Positions 2,856 through 37,528 of a stretch of DNA of 37,528 nucleotides are shown here, piece by piece. Each line of letters opens with the position of its first letter. The first letter of the stretch is position 1. The translations under genes were made by a program, and so were the position numbers. Origin of the DNA: a virus (lineage: Duplodnaviria; Heunggongvirae; Uroviricota; Caudoviricetes); the IMG/VR virus record IMGVR_UViG_2541047697_000003; one strand, 5' to 3'. Under the pieces are notes generated by a model. That model had not been told where the DNA came from, made no database searches, and worked only from the letters and a program-made list of their open reading frames with translations.

Positions 2856-3074
2856 TCAAAGAGAGAGCGCCACCTGTCCTGATTTCATTGGATGCGGCTG
2901 AACCGGATTTGACTCTTTTGGCGTTGCAATCGAACGAACAAAAGTTTCATGGGTAACAAAAGTATGGCTGCAGTTAATGTTCTGGCACTGGTTGTAACGC
3001 TCTTTGGTCAATGAAGATACCTGAAAACTGCTGCGAGTATGGGCGGCACTTCCACACAGTGGGCAAATCATCAT
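2856..3074 (-). CDS. ogr: Ogr/B-family zinc-finger late transcription activator
   Basis: 72 aa from the ATG at 3074 (track start is an upstream GTG); CPLCG...CQNINC Cys4 pattern and overall similarity to P2 Ogr / 186 B (MMICPLCGSAAHTRSS...TKERYNQCQNINCSHTF). Confidence 0.8.
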   Translation of the reverse strand: MMICPLCGSAAHTRSSFQVSSLTKERYNQCQNINCSHTFVTHETFVRSIATPKESNPVQPHPMKSGQVALSL

Positions 3075-21792: not shown

Positions 21793-22626
21793 TCAGCAAT
21801 TGGTCAGAGTGTCAGCGGGGGCGTTGCCGCCTGTTGCACGCTGGCGGTAGTCCTGGCGGCTGTCTTCATGGCTCAGCTTGTCCACCAGTTCGTTAAAGGC
21901 GGTCTGATGTGCCTGCAGGGCAGTCTCCAGCTCAGACAGGCGTTCTTCCTGCTCAGACAGGGATTTTTCGGTGCGCGCACTCAGGTTCTGCTGCTCAGTG
22001 GCGACCAGTTCCACGGCCTTATGCACATCAGAGAACCGGGCGTCATCGGACTGCTCTTTTTTGGTGAACAGCGCCGTGACACGGGCAAACAGGGACGGTT
22101 TGTCATCCTGGATTTCTTCCAGTTCGATCACCGTTTCCTCTGCAGCGGTAAAAAGATTGGCGGGATTCTGCTTGCGGTTTGCCAGCGGGTTATGGGCTGC
22201 ACTAGCGCTGAATGTCAGCATTTCAGTGCCCAGACTGGCAGGGTCATCAGTGGCAGCCAGGCCGACCAGGTAGGCTTTGCCCGTATCAGCGAACTTCGGG
22301 CTGACTTCCATAGAGGTGAATAATTTCTGGCCTTTTTTCACCAGTTCCACCAGGGACTCCGTTGGCTCAACGTCGGCATACAGCGCCATCTTGCCTGCCA
22401 GCGGACCTTCCGTGATTTCTTCAGCAAACAGCGCCGTCACCTTGCCGTAGCGGTTAAAGGTGCTGTCCGGCAGATAAGACTTGATGTGCTCAAGGTTAAT
22501 CAGCGCGGTATACACCGCCGGGTTGTAGCTGGCTGCCATCTGTTCCAGCCATTCACGCTGGATTTCGCGTCCGTCGGTGGTGGCACCTTCCACCCCGATG
22601 CGAAAACGCTTTGCTTTCACTGTCAT
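21793..22626 (-). CDS. O: capsid scaffolding protein gpO-like
   Basis: 277-aa ORF divergent from P, with an acidic/coiled-coil C-terminal half. Confidence 0.85.
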   Translation of the reverse strand: MTVKAKRFRIGVEGATTDGREIQREWLEQMAASYNPAVYTALINLEHIKSYLPDSTFNRYGKVTALFAEEITEGPLAGKMALYADVEPTESLVELVKKGQKLFTSMEVSPKFADTGKAYLVGLAATDDPASLGTEMLTFSASAAHNPLANRKQNPANLFTAAEETVIELEEIQDDKPSLFARVTALFTKKEQSDDARFSDVHKAVELVATEQQNLSARTEKSLSEQEERLSELETALQAHQTAFNELVDKLSHEDSRQDYRQRATGGNAPADTLTNC

Positions 22627-27240: not shown

Positions 27241-29133
27241 TTAATTTGTCCCATCACTAAAGAATTTGATTGCGTCAGTTAGTACATAGTCAATGAAAAT
27301 TTTTACGTGAAAGACCTGAAAAACGCTATTTTCTGAGTTTTGAATGAAATCTACAGCTATATCTTTTAGGTTGATCAACCAGTTATATTCTTCAATCAGT
27401 CTAGTTCTGGCATCCGCATCAGAATAACGACTCCGTAAGCTAAATGCCAGTTTCCTCATGATAACTGGATCAAGTTTCCTATAGCTTTCAATGAAAACAT
27501 CAGCAGGAACTAAGTGTAAAAAAGGTACGTCATGAAGATTTAACTGTCTATTATTAGAATGACTCAATTCAGATAACAACGATGATTTTCCCCTTTGTAA
27601 CTCATCTCTGAACTGCAATGCAAATTCCGAAATTGATTCATCAAACCGTTTCTTCCTTGCTATTTTAATATGTTCAATAATGAGCTTAAAGTCATCACTA
27701 TCCCTGTCAAGAAAACTTAAACTACGCCATCCCCTTAATTCGTTATAATGCGTTTGCGCATATTCCTTATGTACATCTTCAGCTCTCAGTCTATTATAAT
27801 AATTATTTATATTCTGTTTTGTCTCATTTATGAGATCATGAACATCATCTGTTGTTAGACCTTCTTTCGCCATTTCCAGCAAAATACTCGCTGTCATCAG
27901 GAGTTCACCTAAGGTAGTGATCTTACCTGAAAATAGGTTATCCTTAGCAATAGCGTACTGCTCATAAAGCATAGTTTCATTTAGTTCTCTATAGTTCCAC
28001 AAACACCTCCATGCTGGTGAATCGCTGCTTCTAAAAAAACGCGTAACATCCAACTGAGCAAGAAGATCACCCGTTACCTTTCCATCACAGATTAGTTCTC
28101 TCCAAGACGCGCCATCCAGTAACTTCTCGGTTAATACAGGAGACGAATATTTCTCGACAATCATGTCATACTTACTTTTGACGCGTTCTTTACCCAAAAA
28201 CATACCATAATTAACATTGCCGATTGAATTGAAATCCTCGTAGCTAAGATTCCCTCCCCGGTACTCCATCGAAAAAATTAACAATTGATGAAAAAACACC
28301 CTTATAAATTCATCGTTACTTAAATATTTATCTCCCAAAAGGGAAATAATTCGTTGTACATCGAGAAAGAACTGCCTCAAGTGTCTTAGATTATTATAAT
28401 TCGCTGACACATAGAGGTCCTCTATTGTCTGCATATCTTCTTTAAATATATTAGCAACATGCAAACTACTAATTACGTTCAAGAAAATCTTACAAGCACT
28501 ATGTAAATCTGACGTTACTTCAAATGTTTTACCTACTAGCTTTTCTTTTGTTCTCATGTATTCATTGCGATATTTCTCATCATCATTATTTATTCGCTTT
28601 TCTCTATTGATTATTTCATCTTCATTGGCAACCAAGATCGCTTTGTATCCGTTTACTTCCACAAAGTGATTTATATATCCAAATAAGATTGGTAAATCTA
28701 CACCAGCTCTCTCGACATCATCAAAGACCAGCACAAAACCATCTGGTTTTCTAGTAAAGTCGCTAAGATTAATGGTGGGAACATTGCTATTGATATCTAC
28801 GTCAGATTTATTATCGCCATTAAGATCGATCTTGAAAGTAGCCTTAAGCGTATTTTTTAGTACATTTGCACCAAAGATAAGGGCTTTGTTTGATAGGACA
28901 GGATGCAATTGACGATAGAACTCATCTTCAATCTGCTCAATAGAGTTGACGCCATACAAGCTCACTTTTAGAAATTTGAACTCTGAATGTTTCTGCTTAT
29001 ATTCTTCAAGAACTCGTTCAATGAACCAAGTTTTACCTGATCCCCAAGCACCTTTAAGCATAATGGCGTATTGAGGTTCAGTTTTAAGGCTAAGGTAATA
29101 TTCTATATAGTCTTTGATGTACGTATTGTGCAT
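27241..29133 (-). CDS. AT-rich cargo P-loop NTPase with a KAP-type Walker A (function unknown)
   Basis: 630 aa from the ATG at 29133 (track start is TTG at 29184); Walker A LKGAWGSGKTWF and Walker B-like FVLVFDDVER; long helical C-terminal region. Confidence 0.7.
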   Translation of the reverse strand: MHNTYIKDYIEYYLSLKTEPQYAIMLKGAWGSGKTWFIERVLEEYKQKHSEFKFLKVSLYGVNSIEQIEDEFYRQLHPVLSNKALIFGANVLKNTLKATFKIDLNGDNKSDVDINSNVPTINLSDFTRKPDGFVLVFDDVERAGVDLPILFGYINHFVEVNGYKAILVANEDEIINREKRINNDDEKYRNEYMRTKEKLVGKTFEVTSDLHSACKIFLNVISSLHVANIFKEDMQTIEDLYVSANYNNLRHLRQFFLDVQRIISLLGDKYLSNDEFIRVFFHQLLIFSMEYRGGNLSYEDFNSIGNVNYGMFLGKERVKSKYDMIVEKYSSPVLTEKLLDGASWRELICDGKVTGDLLAQLDVTRFFRSSDSPAWRCLWNYRELNETMLYEQYAIAKDNLFSGKITTLGELLMTASILLEMAKEGLTTDDVHDLINETKQNINNYYNRLRAEDVHKEYAQTHYNELRGWRSLSFLDRDSDDFKLIIEHIKIARKKRFDESISEFALQFRDELQRGKSSLLSELSHSNNRQLNLHDVPFLHLVPADVFIESYRKLDPVIMRKLAFSLRSRYSDADARTRLIEEYNWLINLKDIAVDFIQNSENSVFQVFHVKIFIDYVLTDAIKFFSDGTN

Positions 29134-29454
29134 TTTTAGTCCATTTTTATAAAATACATAAACATAGATGGTAAGTAGAGCCAAAGGCCAACTATGGAAA
29201 ATTCAATCGGTAGTGTACATTGTAAGGTTATTATTGGTAAATATTATAGGAATACCCATAATCTTACAAAATTCAGATTATCCGTTGCAAATTAGTCTGC
29301 TATTCGTTAATTGACGAAAGATAGCAGAAGAAATGTTCGCTTCTGGCACAAAGCGGACGATCACTTATAAAAATGACCGCCCACCTTACGCCTTATTTCA
29401 CTCATTGCCCAAACTAGCCCCCATCAGAGTGAATCCTCCTGGGGGCAACATTTC

Positions 29455-29688
29455 TTAATGCTGCCAGCTGTCGTCTTCCCACACCTTCTGCATAATTTTC
29501 ATCACTTGTTTTCTTTCTTCGTCCAGTTGCAGTCCGGTAAGTTCCACACCGTGAGAGCTACCTTTGCGGATACGAATTACCGTTTTGGGATACAGGGGGC
29601 GCAGATTGCGGTAAAGCTCGGATTCAAGGGCGTCTAGGATAGACTGGCTAATCTTCTGCTCTTTATCGATCATTATTTCAATGCGCAT
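29455..29688 (-). CDS. DinI-like protein (186 Tum C-terminal-like)
   Basis: 77 aa from the ATG at 29688 with GAGGTGA upstream; MRIEIMIDKEQ...LESELYRNL...IRIRKGSSHGVEL...VWEDDSWQ follows the DinI pattern. Confidence 0.7.
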   Translation of the reverse strand: MRIEIMIDKEQKISQSILDALESELYRNLRPLYPKTVIRIRKGSSHGVELTGLQLDEERKQVMKIMQKVWEDDSWQH

Positions 29689-29698
29689 AAAAGTCACC

Positions 29699-29887
29699 TC
29701 AACTGATGACATCCATTGAGCGGTTGTATTCGTGGGTTCTGATTTTTGCCATGAGTTCATCAGTCAATTCAGAAACCCACTGCAAAGCCAGCCCCTTCTC
29801 TTCATCACTACACTCACTAGCCGCTACAAGCTTAAGAAAAAAATCAATGCGCTGGAGCTTCAAAGACTCCAAAAAATAGTCCTGCAT
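29699..29887 (-). CDS. small SOS-operon protein (possible Tum N-terminal part)
   Basis: 62-aa ORF with an ATG start and strong AGGAGG, directly downstream of the LexA box; different frame from the DinI-like ORF. Confidence 0.45.
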   Translation of the reverse strand: MQDYFLESLKLQRIDFFLKLVAASECSDEEKGLALQWVSELTDELMAKIRTHEYNRSMDVIS

Positions 29888-29928
29888 CTTTCCTCCTATA
29901 ACACCAAAGAAATATTGTATACATAACC

Positions 29929-29947
29929 ACTGTTTATATTTACAGTA
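29929..29947 (-). promoter_or_regulatory. LexA (SOS) box at the promoter of the small-ORF / DinI-like operon
   Basis: aCTGTttatatttACAGta, a perfect CTGT-N8-ACAG with an AT-rich spacer, about 45 bp upstream of the 62-aa ORF start. Confidence 0.7.
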
Positions 29948-30039: not shown

Positions 30040-30396
30040 TTAATACAGGTTCCGCCACTTATCATCTTCCTGCAAACGCTGGTTCCGATAGAAGATACGC
30101 AGGCCTGCTCCTGACGGAATACTGCCGCCGCGAAGGAGTAAATCGACCTCTTTCTCGCTACCATCAAATCCTCTGGACTTCAGTTCATAGGCGAGCTGCT
30201 GTCGCTGATGGTCTGTAATTCGCTGTTTGTAGTCTTTACGCCGTTTCGGTTTCACCAGGCGTAACCTTGCTGCCAGTTCCCGGCGCTCTTTTTTGCTCAT
30301 ACTGTGCAGGTAATCGTGCAACTCCTTGTCATCCATGCGGGTGATATCCGTTCTGGTATCCCCATCAGCTGATTTGTCTTTCCCTTGTTGGTTCAA
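30040..30396 (-). CDS. hypothetical basic protein downstream of A
   Basis: 118-aa ORF from a TTG (internal ATGs at 30336 and 30300); no clear RBS; highly charged. Confidence 0.35.
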
Positions 30397-32480
30397 ATTT
30401 TCAGCAAGGGGACAGTTATTGCCACGAGTCCAAGGGGACAGTTATTGCCACGAGTCCAAGGGGCGCAAGCGCCCTGGTCGGCTGCCGCCTCCTGAACGTC
30501 AACGGCCTTACGAACCATTTTCCACTTCACTGCATGAGTGCAGATTTTGCCCTCTGCAATGGGTGACCAGATGCCATAAATACGAATGCCGTGATCGCCA
30601 TAGGCGGTCGGCTCTTCGTTGATTTCATAAGCGGTTCTGATGAGGTGATATTTACGGGGAACCAGTACGCCGCCCTGCTTCATGATGTAGGTGGCAAAAC
30701 AACCAGCATCAGCTGCAGCCAGAATGGCATCAAGGCGCGGGTTATCCAGTACCGGCGCACCTGCTTTTTTGTCACCCTGTTGCCTTGCCACCTGACCAGC
30801 CAGCAATCGCAGTTCACGGTAAGCCTGACGCCCCGGAATGCCAAAGAAGCGGAATTGCTGAACACGATGCAGAGACGCCCAGGCATTAACGTATTCAGCG
30901 TTATCACGCAGAGATTTACCCGTTTCCTTGCTGATCTCGCCAGCCAGACCACGCCCGTCAATGTTCTTACTGATGTATTTCGCGATGTAGCTTGTCGGCG
31001 TTCCTTTGCGCGGGTTTATCAGCTCAGATTTAAAGCGTGGACCAGTGTTATTACCCAGTTCCTCGCGGTCTTCACGGATGGCAAACTTACGCAACAATGC
31101 AGTAATGGCGCGGCGGTCTTTTTTGCGCATGAAACACAACAGGTGCCAGTGAACTGTACCGTCATGATGCGGCTCAGCCACCCGCACGCCATACCAGCGC
31201 AACCCGGCTTTGTGCATCGCCTTACGAAATGCAGCAAACATGCCGACCAGATAATCGCTGCTTTGTCTTACCGTCGCATTTGTCCAGGTTGGGTTTGGTC
31301 TGCCGTTATTGAGCGTGGAATGGAAACGTGACGGACAGGTAATGGTGTAGAAAACGGCGCAGTCACCGCGCATTTCCGCGATAAGCTCCAGACCTTTAAC
31401 ACAGGCCATCATCTCATTGCGGCGGTGCGCCGGGTTGCTGCTGCTGGCGTTTACCACGTCTTCCATATCCAGCGTGTCGCCCTCTTCGTTCACCAGTTCA
31501 TGAGAACGGAAAAACTCCAGTGACTTGCGGCGCTGCTCACGTTTATGCATCACGGCTTCATAGCTGACATAGGGAGATGCTTTTTTGCTGACCAGGCAGA
31601 CAGCACGCAACTGCTCTTCCCGCCATTCGCAACGCATTTTCCATAATTTCCGGTACCACCAGTCGGCGCACAACATACGCGCCAGCGAACCCGGAATGAG
31701 TTCATAGGGCACGGGTTTACGGCGGTTTCTTTTCCGACGGAGTTGCTCAAACGCAGGCGGGATGACATCCAGACGCAGGGTTTCCGCTGCCACCTTTTCC
31801 CATGTCTTGCGGATTTCTTCTGGCTTAACGTCATCGGTGGCATACAAATCACCACAAGCTGCATCAAGGCACATGCTCATATGCGCAGCGACAAGGGTAG
31901 ACAGGCGTTTCACCTGATCCTGACTCATTTCAGGCAGAATCAGCAGGCCGTCCAGCCCTACATGGCTTGCCATAAAACGAAAAGATGCAGATAGCTGGCT
32001 GTCGCGTACATGCTCCAGTCGTTCCAGACATGGCTTAATCGTCTCACGTAAATAGCGGGAATAAGCCTTTGGCCTGCCCAGGCTGTTAAAGTATTCAATA
32101 CGTTGCATCAGCGGCTTGCTGATATGGGAGGGCTGGGCGCTGACGTCTGCCAGAATGACCATGTCCGGGTTAAAACGCTGCTGCTCATGCGCCAACTTTG
32201 CCCGGCTAATGAGCTTATCCTGCTCTATTTCGCGTTGGACAGGATCACGGGATTCATTAAAGAAATAACGCTCCCAGACCTGATCACTCAGTGCCTCGCG
32301 GCGCAGTTGTTCCTGCTCGTTATCGGCAGCGTACAGAGTGATCAGGTTTGAAAGCGCAGAAACCGGCGCAACTTCCGCCGGGTCCAGATAAGGGTTAATG
32401 GCCTTTTTCGGGCTGTTCCATGAGAACGATGCGGCAGCCTCGTTAAAGCCGCAGCAGTTGCTCATATCGGCATGGCTCAT
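30393..32480 (-). CDS. A: replication initiation endonuclease gpA-like (rolling-circle, HUH-Y family)
   Basis: 695-aa ORF; HWHLL (HUH-like) and SYIAKYISK tyrosine motifs; ATG overlaps the dam stop. Confidence 0.9.
30405..30474. repeat. tandem direct repeat (2 x 26 bp plus a partial third copy) followed by a 14-bp palindrome, inside the 3' end of gene A
   Basis: caaggggacagttattgccacgagtc at 30405-30430 and 30431-30456, then caagggg; then gggcgc-aa-gcgccc at 30461-30474. Confidence 0.8.
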
Positions 32481-35385: not shown

Positions 35386-35510
35386 GATGCAACATTCCTC
35401 GTTTAATGATGATTAATCAGGACGAATACGGATCGTTTGTATTTTGTGAACACCATAAACATACGATCGCACGGTGAAATCGTCAAGACAAAAGTTCACT
35501 TGGAGTGACC
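35386..35510. promoter_or_regulatory. immunity switch region (divergent/face-to-face early and repressor promoters with operator-like inverted repeats)
   Basis: 125-bp intergenic between apl and cI; GTGAAC (35446-35451) and GTTCAC (35494-35499) inverted, with a GTGAAA copy between them. Confidence 0.45.
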
Positions 35511-36080
35511 ATGAATTTGGAGAAAGGCGGACGAGGCGCTATAGAGCGCATGGTAGAAGCTTATGGATTCAAGACTCGACAGGCGTTGTGCGATCATTTA
35601 GGAATCTCTAAAAGTACACTCGCCACACGCTACATGCGTGACTCATTCCCAGCAGAATGGGTAATCCAGTGCGCCCTTGAAACAGGCACCTCGCTTAATT
35701 GGCTCACAACCGGGCATGGTTCAAAGCAAACTTCAGGTAATACAAATACTATGGAAGTTGCTAAATATGTATTATCTGATGGGGCCTTGTGTGAAGACGG
35801 TTTTTATATTTTCGATAGAGAATTTCTACCGTCGGCATACAAGAATCTTTTTGTAATCACAGATAATAATTCTGAATTTATTTGTGATAAGGAATTTGAT
35901 GATATACGTGATGGTAAATGGGTAATAAGTATTGATGGCGAAATAACGATCCGTGACATTACTCGTTTACCCGGTGGAAGAATCTTCGTCGAGGGTGGAA
36001 ACAGAGCCTTCGAATGCAAGATAGAAGACATTGAAATAATTGGTAAAATTATAAGTTTAACAGTCAAGTATGTTAAATAG
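35511..36080 (+). CDS. cI: CI-like immunity repressor (186 CI family)
   Basis: 189 aa from the ATG at 35511 with GGAG upstream; N-terminal HTH (AYGFKTRQALCDHLGISKSTLATRY) and a C-terminal oligomerisation domain; resembles 186 CI. Confidence 0.8.
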   Translation: MNLEKGGRGAIERMVEAYGFKTRQALCDHLGISKSTLATRYMRDSFPAEWVIQCALETGTSLNWLTTGHGSKQTSGNTNTMEVAKYVLSDGALCEDGFYIFDREFLPSAYKNLFVITDNNSEFICDKEFDDIRDGKWVISIDGEITIRDITRLPGGRIFVEGGNRAFECKIEDIEIIGKIISLTVKYVK

Positions 36081-36095
36081 TACCGGGAGGAAATT

Positions 36096-36287
36096 ATGCT
36101 TGGTAAGGTATTTTTTGTGGTTTTGTCATGTTCTTTGTTATTAAACCCACTAGCTACCTATGCTAGAAATTATCCCTGCTCAGGGAAAAAGGGAGGTGTT
36201 TCTCACTGTACCTCTGATGGCAAATTCGTTTGCAATGATGGAACTATTAGTAAATCCAAAAAAATCTGTACTAAAAACTCACGATAA
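36096..36287 (+). CDS. small secreted Cys-rich peptide (moron between cI and int)
   Basis: 63 aa; strong GGGAGG RBS 5 nt upstream; signal-peptide-like N-terminus [23 protein letters not shown]; mature part has four Cys; AT-rich. Confidence 0.5.
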
Positions 36288-36475
36288 CTTTTGCTTTTAT
36301 ATCTGCGCCTAAAATAAAAATGAGCCACAGGTTAACCGCAAAAGTTACATGCTCACATAGCAAAAAGAATAGTCTACTTCATTATGGCTTCAGTGAGATG
36401 TATGGTCGCAGGATTTCATACATTGACACTGGTTATACATACAGTAAAAATGCTCTCTATTGGAGGGCATTTTTT

Positions 36476-37528
36476 ATGGCTGTACGAAAACTCACCACAG
36501 GAAAATGGCTTTGCGAATGTTACCCCGCCGGACGTAGTGGACGTCGTGTGCGTAAACAATTCGCCACCAAAGGCGAAGCACTGGCTTTTGAGCGTCACAC
36601 GATGGAAGAAACCGAAGCAAAGCCCTGGCTAGGTGAATCAGTGGATCGTCGAACACTGAAAGACGTGGTTGAGCTATGGTTCAAACTACATGGTAAATCA
36701 CTGACAGCTGGGCAGCATGTCTATGACAAATTGCTGCTGATGGTTGACGCTCTGGGCAATCCCCTTGCAACCGATCTAACCTCTAAAATGTTTGCCCACT
36801 ATCGAGATAAACGCCTGACAGGTGAGATCTACTTCAGCGAGAAATGGAAGAAAGGAGCAAGCCCGGTCACCATTAACCTGGAGCAAAGCTATCTAAGTAG
36901 TGTTTTTAGCGAACTATCCCGCCTGGGCGAATGGTCGTATCCGAACCCACTGGAGAACATGCGAAAATTCACCATCGCAGAAAAAGAGATGGCATGGCTT
37001 ACCCATGAGCAGATTGTTGAATTACTGGCTGATTGCAAACGTCATGACCCAATTCTGGCACTGGTAGTTAAGATATGCTTAAGCACAGGCGCACGCTGGC
37101 GAGAAGCCGTAAATCTTACTCGTTCACAGGTGACCAAATACCGAATTACCTTTGTAAGAACGAAGGGGAAGAAAAACAGAAGCATCCCTATCAGTAAAGA
37201 GCTTTACGAAGAGATCATGGCGCTTGATGGGTTCAATTTCTTCACAGACTGCTATTTTCAATTTTTATCCGTGATGGAAAAAACGTCTATCGTCCTCCCT
37301 CGCGGTCAACTGACACACGTTCTGCGCCATACGTTTGCGGCGCATTTCATGATGTCGGGTGGAAATATCCTTGCTTTGCAAAAAATCCTCGGACATCACG
37401 ATATAAAAATGACTATGCGTTACGCTCATCTGGCACCGGATCATCTGGAAACGGCGCTCCGTTTCAACCCTCTGGCAACGCTGCCAAGTGGCGACAAAGT
37501 GGCGGCAGCGGTTGGCATTACCCCGTAA
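36476..37528 (+). CDS. int: tyrosine integrase (P2/186 Int family)
   Basis: 350 aa from the ATG at 36476 with GGAGGG upstream (track ORF starts further up); C-terminal HxLRH ... RYAHL catalytic pattern; stop codon is the final triplet of the window. Confidence 0.9.
   Translation: MAVRKLTTGKWLCECYPAGRSGRRVRKQFATKGEALAFERHTMEETEAKPWLGESVDRRTLKDVVELWFKLHGKSLTAGQHVYDKLLLMVDALGNPLATDLTSKMFAHYRDKRLTGEIYFSEKWKKGASPVTINLEQSYLSSVFSELSRLGEWSYPNPLENMRKFTIAEKEMAWLTHEQIVELLADCKRHDPILALVVKICLSTGARWREAVNLTRSQVTKYRITFVRTKGKKNRSIPISKELYEEIMALDGFNFFTDCYFQFLSVMEKTSIVLPRGQLTHVLRHTFAAHFMMSGGNILALQKILGHHDIKMTMRYAHLAPDHLETALRFNPLATLPSGDKVAAAVGITP

What the first reader, a model, noticed from the sequence alone, without database searches (positions are those of the whole stretch)
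30405..30474. 26-bp tandem duplication plus palindrome inside the 3' end of replication gene A
Two perfect 26-bp direct repeats and a partial third copy are followed by a GGGCGC-AA-GCGCCC palindrome, all within the last 30 codons of A. Because 26 is not a multiple of 3, the two copies are read in different frames (TRGNNCPL then GLVAITVPL), so copy-number change would remodel the A C-terminus. P2-type origins lie inside the 3' part of gene A, so these repeats may be part of the origin or nick site.
Basis: partly seen in the sequence, partly recalled or inferred. Interest (0 to 1): 0.4.

Follow-up and report, generated by a model that had tools for sequence, protein, structure and literature searches.

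The report
Duplicated replication nick site truncating gene A
The 26-bp repeat is a tandem duplication of the exact spot where this P2-like prophage's replication protein A nicks its own gene to start DNA copying; the extra copy shifts the reading frame and cuts about 110 amino acids off A, and the same spot has been duplicated independently many times in related prophages.

Summary
In detail: 26 bp x 2.3 copies, 100% identical, at 30405-30463, followed by a 6+6 palindrome. The repeat unit is the nick-site core of the P2/186-type rolling-circle origin, and the palindrome is a conserved, covarying stem-loop 4-8 nt 5' of the nick. One copy is the normal state (114 of 120 IMG/VR contigs; about 1,130 of 1,150 E. 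coli genomes). The second copy is a derived 26-bp duplication that frameshifts gene A from 804 to 695 aa and orphans a selected 127-codon tail, now ORF 30040-30396. NCBI annotates the same allele elsewhere as "frameshifted". The duplication is recurrent (9 parsimony steps for 9 tips). No reciprocal deletion is found. It belongs to an allele series (+6, +12, +18, +24, +21, +26, +52) whose members all start at the base aligned with the mapped P2 nick, two of them with zero microhomology. The site is the only indel hotspot in gene A. Most likely the duplications start from the A-made nick; plain slippage between the flanking CCCCTTG repeats remains a rival for +26. My own CTYG pseudo-site prediction failed one test. 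I rate it a new variant of a known kind, of moderate interest.

The parts
30393..32480 (-). Gene A as it stands: 695-aa truncated rolling-circle initiator. It keeps the HUH motif (TVHWHLL, about residue 452) and the two active-site tyrosines (Y498-IAK-Y502).
   Evidence: ORF list; Pfam PF05840 E = 1.3e-127 over residues 188-510; motif positions. The Cartapus gpA (804 aa) matches in two frames, residues 1-684 and 672-804.
30461..30474 (-). Origin stem-loop (coding strand GGGCGC-TT-GCGCCC), ending 4 nt 5' of the predicted nick.
   Evidence: 80% of 65 unique origin contexts have a perfect stem of at least 5 bp ending 4-8 nt before the nick, against 5% of shuffles, with 22 distinct stem sequences. 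The stem is predicted in the single-strand DNA fold.
30431..30456 (-). Copy 1 of the nick-site core, next to the hairpin (coding strand GACTCGTGGCAATAACTGTCCCCTTG). Predicted nick between 30457 and 30456 (CCCCTTG^GACTCG).
   Evidence: Alignment to the P2 nick 29892 and the 186 nick 28576. CTYG 5' of the nick is invariant in 110 unique P2/186-type contexts.
30405..30430 (-). Copy 2, the derived duplicate of the nick-site core. It has no adjacent hairpin. Second predicted nick site between 30431 and 30430. This is the 26-bp insertion that shifts the frame.
   Evidence: Absent from 114 of 120 IMG/VR contigs and from about 98% of E. coli prophages with this origin type.
30457..30463 (-). CCCCTTG, the 5' half-site of the nick. 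Its repeat 26 nt downstream in the single-copy form is the 7-nt microhomology (TRF's 'partial third copy').
30040..30396 (-). Orphaned C-terminal tail of A (118-aa ORF). It is in frame with A only when one copy is present. Its TTG start overlaps the TGA stop of the truncated A (ATTTGA).
   Evidence: Tail pN/pS is 0.17 in 81 single-copy relatives, and the frame is open in all duplication alleles. It is homologous to residues 604-656 of 186 A, E = 2e-5.

Best explanation
The window carries an otherwise intact P2/186-like (Elveevirus-type) prophage. Its rolling-circle origin lies inside gene A, as in P2 and 186. The origin consists of a G+C-rich stem-loop followed 4 nt later by the nick site CCCCTTG^GACTCGTGGCAATAACTGT on the coding strand. 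Here the 26 nt that begin at the nick have been tandemly duplicated. That gives two nick-site cores 26 bp apart and shifts the frame of A, so A ends after 695 aa instead of 804 and loses a conserved C-terminal tail. The catalytic HUH and YxxxY core is retained. The duplication is one of a family of duplications (+6n, +21, +26, +52) that all begin at the nick and arise recurrently. The most likely origin is the nick itself. After A cuts and becomes covalently linked to the 5' end, the free 3' end is extended a short way. The 5' end is then rejoined to the extended 3' end (aborted initiation), or termination reads through to the CCCCTTG half-site 26 nt downstream. The 7-nt CCCCTTG repeat favours the 26-nt outcome. 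Such a phage can still lysogenise, because A is needed only for lytic replication, so the allele appears in prophages as young evolutionary tips. Shown here: the identity of the repeat, the ancestral single-copy state, the frameshift, recurrence, nick anchoring and hotspot specificity. Inferred: the catalytic role of A in making the duplication, the nicked strand, loss of function of the truncated A, and possible reversion to one copy by initiating at one core and terminating at the other.
For: Homology of the unit to the annotated P2 and 186 nick regions. PMC8537503 states that the P2 origin was determined experimentally at 29,892 and that the nick sequence is conserved in Peduovirinae. One copy is the norm and gives an 804-aa A; PGAP marks two-copy alleles 'frameshifted'. 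With the nick segment masked, 96 sequences x 1,949 columns hold only two 1-nt indels, while the nick site holds 15 length variants in at least 7 classes. Eight other direct-repeat pairs of at least 7 nt in gene A show no variation. Fitch parsimony needs 9 steps for 9 +26/+52 tips, and the nearest neighbours are single-copy, e.g. L002 vs L016 at 0.05%. The reciprocal 26-bp deletion is absent from IMG/VR and from 5,426 E. coli genomes, against 14 duplication alleles. The +21 allele, and the +6 allele in P2-type origins, have zero microhomology and start exactly at the bond aligned to P2 29892|29893. The stem-loop covaries. The tail is under purifying selection and is intact in all duplication alleles. 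The rest of the prophage is intact. The phiX174 origin has CTTG^A and AATAAC on the coding strand of its own gene A.
Against: For +26, both slippage and nick-based models need the CCCCTTG repeat. The sister lineage that lacks it (121 contigs) has no 26-bp duplication, which fits either model. My specific prediction that duplication endpoints must be CTYG pseudo-sites failed: P2-type origins have a +6 duplication ending in GAGTCC. The absence of the deletion allele could reflect selection, since deletion destroys the origin, rather than mechanism. The exact phosphodiester and the nicked strand were not read from the primary paper (PMC332061 is not held); they rest on GenBank annotations and the analogy with phiX174. 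No biochemical data. In the 119-contig IMG/VR sample of P2/186-type origins no duplication was seen, so the rate differs between origin types for unknown reasons.
Confidence: 0.62

Rival explanations
1. Ordinary replication slippage: the nascent strand misaligns between the two CCCCTTG repeats 26 bp apart during any replication, including host replication of the prophage. The A protein and its nick play no part, and the coincidence with the origin is incidental.
For: A 7-nt direct repeat flanks the unit in single-copy relatives. The sister lineage with CCCCCTG at +26 has no 26-bp duplication in 121 contigs. Hexamer arrays differ in copy number between otherwise identical flanks (L012 x5 vs L013 x4), as slippage in an existing array would give.
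Against: Eight other repeat pairs of at least 7 nt with periods of 22-53 nt in the same gene show no length variant in 96 sequences, while this pair shows 9 independent events. No reciprocal deletion is found. The co-located +21 and P2-type +6 duplications have zero microhomology, and first-step +6 has 1 nt, yet all start at the same bond.
Confidence: 0.25
2. A selected, functional arrangement: a doubled origin (iteron-like) or a reversible on/off switch of A that benefits the phage or the host. Copy number would toggle between replication-proficient (one copy) and replication-limited (two or more copies) prophage states.
For: The allele recurs and persists within clones (S88, MS7163 and N53 share it). 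The tail ORF stays open in every duplication allele. Two tandem nick cores could in principle be resolved back to one by initiation at one and termination at the other; this is established for rolling-circle plasmids and geminivirus constructs with two origins, which I cite from background knowledge. Only the one-copy state gives full-length A.
Against: Only about 1-5% of relatives carry it, and always as evolutionary tips. The tail is under purifying selection in single-copy phages. The second copy lacks the conserved stem-loop. Only three states are seen, with no long tract as in contingency loci. Nothing here shows benefit or reversion.
Confidence: 0.1
3. A sequencing or assembly artefact.
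For: None specific. Tandem repeats can be miscounted in principle.
Against: The identical junction is present in 8 complete E. coli genomes from independent projects and 6 IMG/VR contigs, plus a 3-copy allele and one with a point change in a copy. 26 bp is far below read length.
Confidence: 0.01

Closest known systems
Origin (ori) and A-protein nick site of coliphages P2 and 186, inside gene A (Liu & Haggard-Ljungquist 1994, NAR 22:5204, cited via PMC3986222; GenBank NC_001895 rep_origin 29892; NC_001317 rep_origin 28576)
   Same: Position in the 3' part of gene A. Core sequence CTYG^GA..C..TG.CAATAACTGT with CAATAACTGT invariant. A G+C-rich stem-loop a few nt 5' of the nick. A protein of family PF05840 with HUH and YxxxY motifs.
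   Different: The core differs at 5-6 positions (GACTCGTGG vs GAGTYCTGT). Here the core is present twice in tandem, and gene A is consequently frameshifted. Full-length A of this lineage is 804 aa, against 761 for P2 and 694 for 186.
Illegitimate recombination at nick sites of rolling-circle replicons (M13 and pC194; Michel & Ehrlich 1986) and 'replicational release' between two tandem origins in RCR plasmids and geminiviruses (from my own knowledge, not checked here)
   Same: Rearrangement endpoints that coincide with the initiator's nick. The initiator's cleavage-joining chemistry gives a ready mechanism for joining its covalently held 5' end to another 3' end.
   Different: Those cases were deletions or release events in laboratory constructs. 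Here the products are short tandem duplications (6-52 nt) found as natural polymorphisms in prophages and lying inside the initiator's own coding sequence.
phiX174 gene A origin (NC_001422 rep_origin 4306; CAACTTG^ATATTAATAAC)
   Same: The origin lies within the initiator gene on its coding strand. CTTG is 5' of the nick and AATAAC downstream. The initiator has two tyrosines.
   Different: No stem-loop next to the nick. The spacing of AATAAC differs by 5 nt. No duplication is known to me.
Microhomology-mediated tandem duplication and simple-sequence contingency loci
   Same: A unit flanked by a 7-nt direct repeat. A copy-number change that is not a multiple of 3 switches the reading frame.
   Different: Hotspot specificity, the lack of the reciprocal deletion, and co-located zero-microhomology events point to the nick rather than the repeat alone. 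Only 1-3 copies are seen, and only one state is 'on'.

Membership tests
P2/186-type rolling-circle origin (A-protein nick site) | Lies within the 3' part of the gene A coding sequence | tested here: met
   The predicted nick falls at codon 675 of an ancestral 804. P2 is at about codon 620 of 761 and 186 at about 611 of 694.
P2/186-type rolling-circle origin (A-protein nick site) | Sequence homology to the mapped nick core | tested here: met
   CCTTG|GACTCGTGGCAATAACTGT against P2 CCTCG|GAGTCCTGTCAATAACTGT. CTYG 5' of the nick is invariant in 110 unique contexts.
P2/186-type rolling-circle origin (A-protein nick site) | Stem-loop immediately 5' of the nick | tested here: met
   GGGCGC-TT-GCGCCC at 30461-30474. 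Across origins 80% have a stem of at least 5 bp against 5% of shuffles, with 22 stem variants. RNAalifold on an ungapped alignment found nothing because loop lengths differ.
P2/186-type rolling-circle origin (A-protein nick site) | Cleaved by the cognate A protein at this bond and on this strand | not testable with these tools
   Needs biochemistry or in vivo nick mapping. The primary P2 paper is not held.
Phage_GPA (PF05840) HUH two-tyrosine initiator | Pfam domain above the gathering score, with HUH and YxxxY motifs | tested here: met
   425.8 bits against a cut-off of 31.4. HWH at about residue 452 and Y498/Y502.
Phage_GPA (PF05840) HUH two-tyrosine initiator | Full-length product as in functional relatives | tested here: not met
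   695 aa against 804 aa in Cartapus. The tail is detached by the frameshift. The same allele is annotated as a pseudogene by PGAP.
Iterons (initiator-binding direct repeats of an origin) | Repeats are a conserved feature of the origin in relatives | tested here: not met
   114 of 120 IMG/VR contigs and about 98% of E. coli prophages have one copy.
Slipped-strand tandem duplication | Unit flanked by a direct repeat in the progenitor | tested here: met
   CCCCTTG at both ends, 26 nt apart.
Slipped-strand tandem duplication | Reciprocal deletion, and comparable events at comparable repeats | tested here: not met
   No deletion allele. Eight other repeat pairs of at least 7 nt are silent. Selection against loss of the origin could explain the first point.
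Phase-variable contingency locus | Reversible copy-number change that switches expression, and is maintained by selection | tested here: inconclusive
   States of 1, 2 and 3 copies exist, and only 1 copy gives full-length A. Reversion and benefit were not shown.

The most novel reading that the evidence does not exclude
The A initiator of P2-like phages leaves sequence scars. Short tandem duplications that begin exactly at its nick arise repeatedly in nature through its own cleavage-joining chemistry. They mark the nick to the nucleotide by comparative genomics alone, and in this lineage they create a self-inflicted frameshift of gene A. That frameshift may be self-reversible: it yields prophages that lysogenise but replicate poorly until rolling-circle initiation at one core and termination at the other restores a single copy.
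Probability: 0.3. Interest if true: 0.65.

Novelty: new variant of a known kind. Interest (0 to 1): 0.5.

Why it matters
There are three reasons.

1. It turns a curiosity into an annotation rule. In this widespread prophage group, found in about a fifth of complete E. coli genomes, a 'frameshifted replication endonuclease' with two copies of GACTCGTGGCAATAACTGTCCCCTTG is a recurrent, specific lesion at the origin, not random decay.

2. Nick-anchored duplications with no microhomology offer a way to locate initiator nick sites from population genomic data alone. That may carry over to other HUH replicons, relaxases and transposases.

3. If the A protein makes and can resolve these duplications, this would be a natural example of a replication initiator mutating its own gene. 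That would affect whether a prophage can be induced and how it becomes domesticated.

Tried and rejected
- **CTYG pseudo-site rule.** I proposed that duplication endpoints must be CTYG, because CTCG lies at +6 and CTTG at +26, and no CTYG lies within 40 nt downstream in 110 P2/186-type origins. I predicted that P2-type origins would have no +6 duplication. The prediction failed: CTCG|GAGTCC|GAGTCC exists in 3 E. coli genomes. The rule is not necessary; it may still modulate rates.
- **First deletion-allele search.** Uninformative, because the tool joined the two halves of single-copy alleles into one place. Redone with halves too short to seed.
- **RNAalifold on an ungapped alignment of origins.** It gave no structure because stems are out of register. 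Replaced by a per-sequence stem search with shuffled controls.
- **Whole-region fold energies.** Not unusual (z about 0); only the short stem is informative.
- **Genome-contig scans.** They found almost nothing, since there is one genome per species, so host range beyond Escherichia and Klebsiella was not explored.
- **Primary and review literature on the P2 nick.** Liu & Haggard-Ljungquist 1994 and Christie & Calendar 2016 could not be read.
- **Odd census hits.** H165 and H213 turned out to be single-copy point variants, not new length alleles.
- **Iterons and assembly artefact.** Both rejected on the census data.

Full report
**1. The observation**

Tandem Repeats Finder finds one strong array in the window: 30405-30463, period 26, 2.3 copies, 100% matches, score 118. 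The sequence shows two perfect 26-nt units, a 7-nt partial third unit, and the palindrome GGGCGC-AA-GCGCCC at 30461-30474. The region lies at the 3' end of a minus-strand ORF, 30393-32480 (695 aa). This ORF is a Phage_GPA replication initiator (PF05840, E = 1.3e-127). Its C-terminus reads [23 protein letters not shown], so the two units are read in different frames.

**2. One copy is the normal state, and the second copy is a frameshift**

A 501-nt query around the site matches most relatives over 475 nt, exactly 26 fewer.

- **Full-length A:** in phage Cartapus (Peduoviridae, Elveevirus) gpA is 804 aa.
- **Frame:** with one copy, A reads through into what is here a separate 118-aa ORF (30040-30396). 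With two copies A stops at 695 aa. With three or more it stops at 696 aa, because the third frame of the unit contains TAA.
- **Annotation elsewhere:** NCBI's pipeline annotates two-copy alleles in E. coli 19KM1863, S88, PEB20-37, M8 and EC261 as 'frameshifted'.
- **Rest of the prophage:** every essential Cartapus protein matches the window as one full-length hit except gpA, which splits into residues 1-684 and 672-804 in different frames. The duplication is therefore the only evident lesion in an otherwise complete prophage.
- **Catalytic core:** the HUH motif (about residue 452) and Y498xxxY502 lie upstream of the break.

**3. The unit is the nick-site core of the origin**

GenBank annotates the P2 nick at 29892 and the 186 nick at 28576. 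PMC8537503 confirms that the P2 position was determined experimentally and that the nick sequence is conserved in the subfamily. On the coding strand the three origins align as follows:

- P2: GCGGC-ATC-GCCGC GCCTCG|GAGTCCTGTCAATAACTGT
- 186: GGGCGC-TTCT-GCGCCC TCTCG|GAGTTCTGTCAATAACTGT
- window: GGGCGC-TT-GCGCCC CTTG|GACTCGTGGCAATAACTGT, then CCCCTTG|GACTCGTGGCAATAACTGT, then CCCCTTG|CTG

The P2 annotation marks the first G of the GG step and the 186 annotation marks the second G. Together they bracket one bond, CTYG^G. In window coordinates the predicted nicks lie between 30457|30456 and 30431|30430.

In phiX174, whose origin is also inside its initiator gene on the coding strand, the record gives CAACTTG^ATATTAATAAC. 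It shares CTTG 5' of the nick and AATAAC downstream. This supports the strand assignment, which I could not read from the primary paper.

**4. The palindrome is a conserved stem-loop**

Among 65 unique origin contexts, 80% have a perfect stem of at least 5 bp ending 4-8 nt 5' of the nick, against 5% of shuffled controls. There are 22 different stem sequences, for example GCGGC/GCCGC, GGCCGC/GCGGCC, GGAGCC/GGCTCC and GGAATC/GATTCC. This is covariation in the usual sense. An ungapped RNAalifold run failed only because loop lengths differ. The second copy in the window has no such stem beside it.

**5. Census**

| Collection | Single copy | +26 | +52 | +21 | Hexamer (GACTCG) arrays | 26-bp deletion |
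|---|---|---|---|---|---|---|
| IMG/VR, unbiased sample of 120 contigs via the invariant downstream anchor | 114 | 3 | 1 | 0 | 2 (+6) | not detectable in this sample (the anchor is lost in a deletion allele) |
| IMG/VR, whole collection | not counted | 6 contigs with the two-or-more-copy junction (includes the +52 contig) | (in the 6) | not counted | not counted | 0 |
| About 1,150 complete E. coli genomes with this origin type | about 1,130 | 8 | 0 seen | 1 | 14 (x2 to x5) | 0 |

**6. The site is a specific, recurrent hotspot anchored at the nick**

- **Only hotspot in the gene:** with the nick segment masked, 96 sequences x 1,949 aligned columns of gene A and its 3' flank contain only two single-nucleotide indels. 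The nick segment has 15 length variants in at least 7 classes.
- **Not explained by repeats alone:** gene A contains nine direct-repeat pairs of at least 7 nt with period up to 60. Only the origin pair varies.
- **Recurrent:** on a neighbour-joining tree of the masked flanks, 9 tips with +26 or +52 need 9 parsimony steps, and 5 hexamer tips need 4. Nearest neighbours are single-copy, for example 19KM1863 against L016 at 0.05% divergence.
- **Anchored at the nick:** all variants can be written as duplications starting at CCCCTTG|G. For the +21 allele (RM10809-3) the junction TGTCC|GACTCG has zero microhomology, so its left edge is fixed at that bond.
- **Seen in P2-type origins too:** in P2-type origins I searched for a designed junction, CTCG|GAGTCC|GAGTCC|TGT. 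It occurs in three E. coli genomes of about 1,607, again with zero microhomology. In that 60-nt origin window only 4 of 1,610 records fall below 95% identity, so sizeable indels elsewhere in the window are at most rare.

**7. Tests between mechanisms**

A sister lineage has the same hairpin and core but CCCCCTG instead of CCCCTTG at +26 (121 contigs). It shows hexamer expansion in five contigs from distinct backgrounds and no longer duplication. That result fits both slippage and nick-based models for +26.

I also proposed that endpoints must be CTYG pseudo-sites, since CTCG lies at +6, CTTG at +26, and none lies within 40 nt downstream in 110 P2/186-type origins. The P2-type +6 allele refutes this as a requirement.

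What remains is nick anchoring, hotspot specificity, zero-microhomology members, and an excess of duplications over deletions. Together these favour events that start from the A-made nick. The possible routes are extension of the 3' end followed by rejoining of the tyrosine-linked 5' end, or read-through termination. The CCCCTTG repeat would bias the outcome towards 26 nt. Plain slippage stays a serious rival for the +26 class alone.

**8. Consequences**

The detached tail (127 codons from GNNCPL to the stop) has pN/pS of 0.17 in 81 single-copy relatives, against 0.13 for the upstream 420 codons. It is open in every duplication allele. It aligns to the post-nick C-terminus of 186 A (E = 2e-5; shared S(K/R)(K/R)ERREL..RLR..KP motif).

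So the tail is functional in normal phages, and the two-copy alleles are young. They are probably impaired for lytic replication but can be carried as prophages, since lysogeny does not need A (established P2 genetics, from my own knowledge). Whether the two cores are resolved back to one during rolling-circle replication is an inference from two-origin plasmid and geminivirus systems.

**9. Comparison with what is known, and novelty**

The origin, its position in gene A and the conserved nick sequence are known. Full-text searches for P2-like origins combined with direct repeats, tandem duplication or nick site turned up no account of nick-anchored duplications. Initiator-associated rearrangements at nick sites are known from M13 and pC194 (my own knowledge). 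I therefore rate this a new variant of a known kind, of moderate interest.

Noticed in passing
window 27241-29184 (-): A 647-aa KAP-family P-loop NTPase (Pfam PF07693, E = 1.7e-20) matches the PADLOC candidate defence family PDC-S49 (E = 8.7e-157). It sits in the variable cargo region downstream of the DinI-like gene, and relatives carry different cargo at the same place (DarT/macro, HEPN, PIN, STAS-like, RES).
   Followed up: partly
window 29930-29945: A LexA-box-like palindrome, CTGTTTATATTTACAG, lies just upstream (minus-strand sense) of the small ORF 29702-29887 and the DinI-like gene 29455-29760. The layout resembles the SOS-controlled p95-tum operon annotated in 186. It is the only match in the window (0.44 expected by chance), so the position rather than the count is what is suggestive.
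   Followed up: partly
L136-L255 (P2/186-type origins), 40 nt downstream of the nick: None of 110 unique origin contexts has a CTYG tetranucleotide within 40 nt downstream of the nick, although about half of that stretch is free to vary. This could be avoidance of pseudo nick sites or just shared ancestry.
   Followed up: partly
L384 (E. coli 0-4, NZ_CP076262.1 about 4393617-4393664); also 23AR0762 and 1335KP: P2-type origins carry an in-frame 6-nt duplication (GAGTCC x2) that starts exactly at the mapped P2 nick, with no microhomology. It adds two residues to A.
   Followed up: yes
L073 (IMGVR_UViG_3300029508_000048) and L132: A three-copy (+52) allele exists in a lineage about 5% diverged from its nearest neighbour. 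One two-copy allele has a point change (ACTATCC) in one copy, which suggests that some duplications persist long enough to diverge.
   Followed up: partly
window 30393-30396: The TGA stop of the truncated A overlaps the TTG start of the orphan tail ORF (ATTTGA), so termination-reinitiation could in principle express the tail separately. No Shine-Dalgarno-like sequence is evident upstream.
   Followed up: no
window 35499-37483 and 2874-3074: Mosaicism relative to Cartapus: integrase (54% aa identity), cI (40%) and Ogr (67%) are divergent, while head, tail and replication genes are 84-100% identical.
   Followed up: no
window 21916-21962: An imperfect 21-bp tandem repeat (2.2 copies, 77% matches) lies inside the capsid-scaffold gene.
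   Followed up: no
window 30428-30476 compared with E. coli genomes (hits H61-H80): In more than a thousand E. coli genomes with divergent A genes, the only part of the 501-nt query that still matches at the DNA level is the 45-50 nt of hairpin plus nick core. The origin is thus the most conserved DNA segment of gene A.
   Followed up: partly
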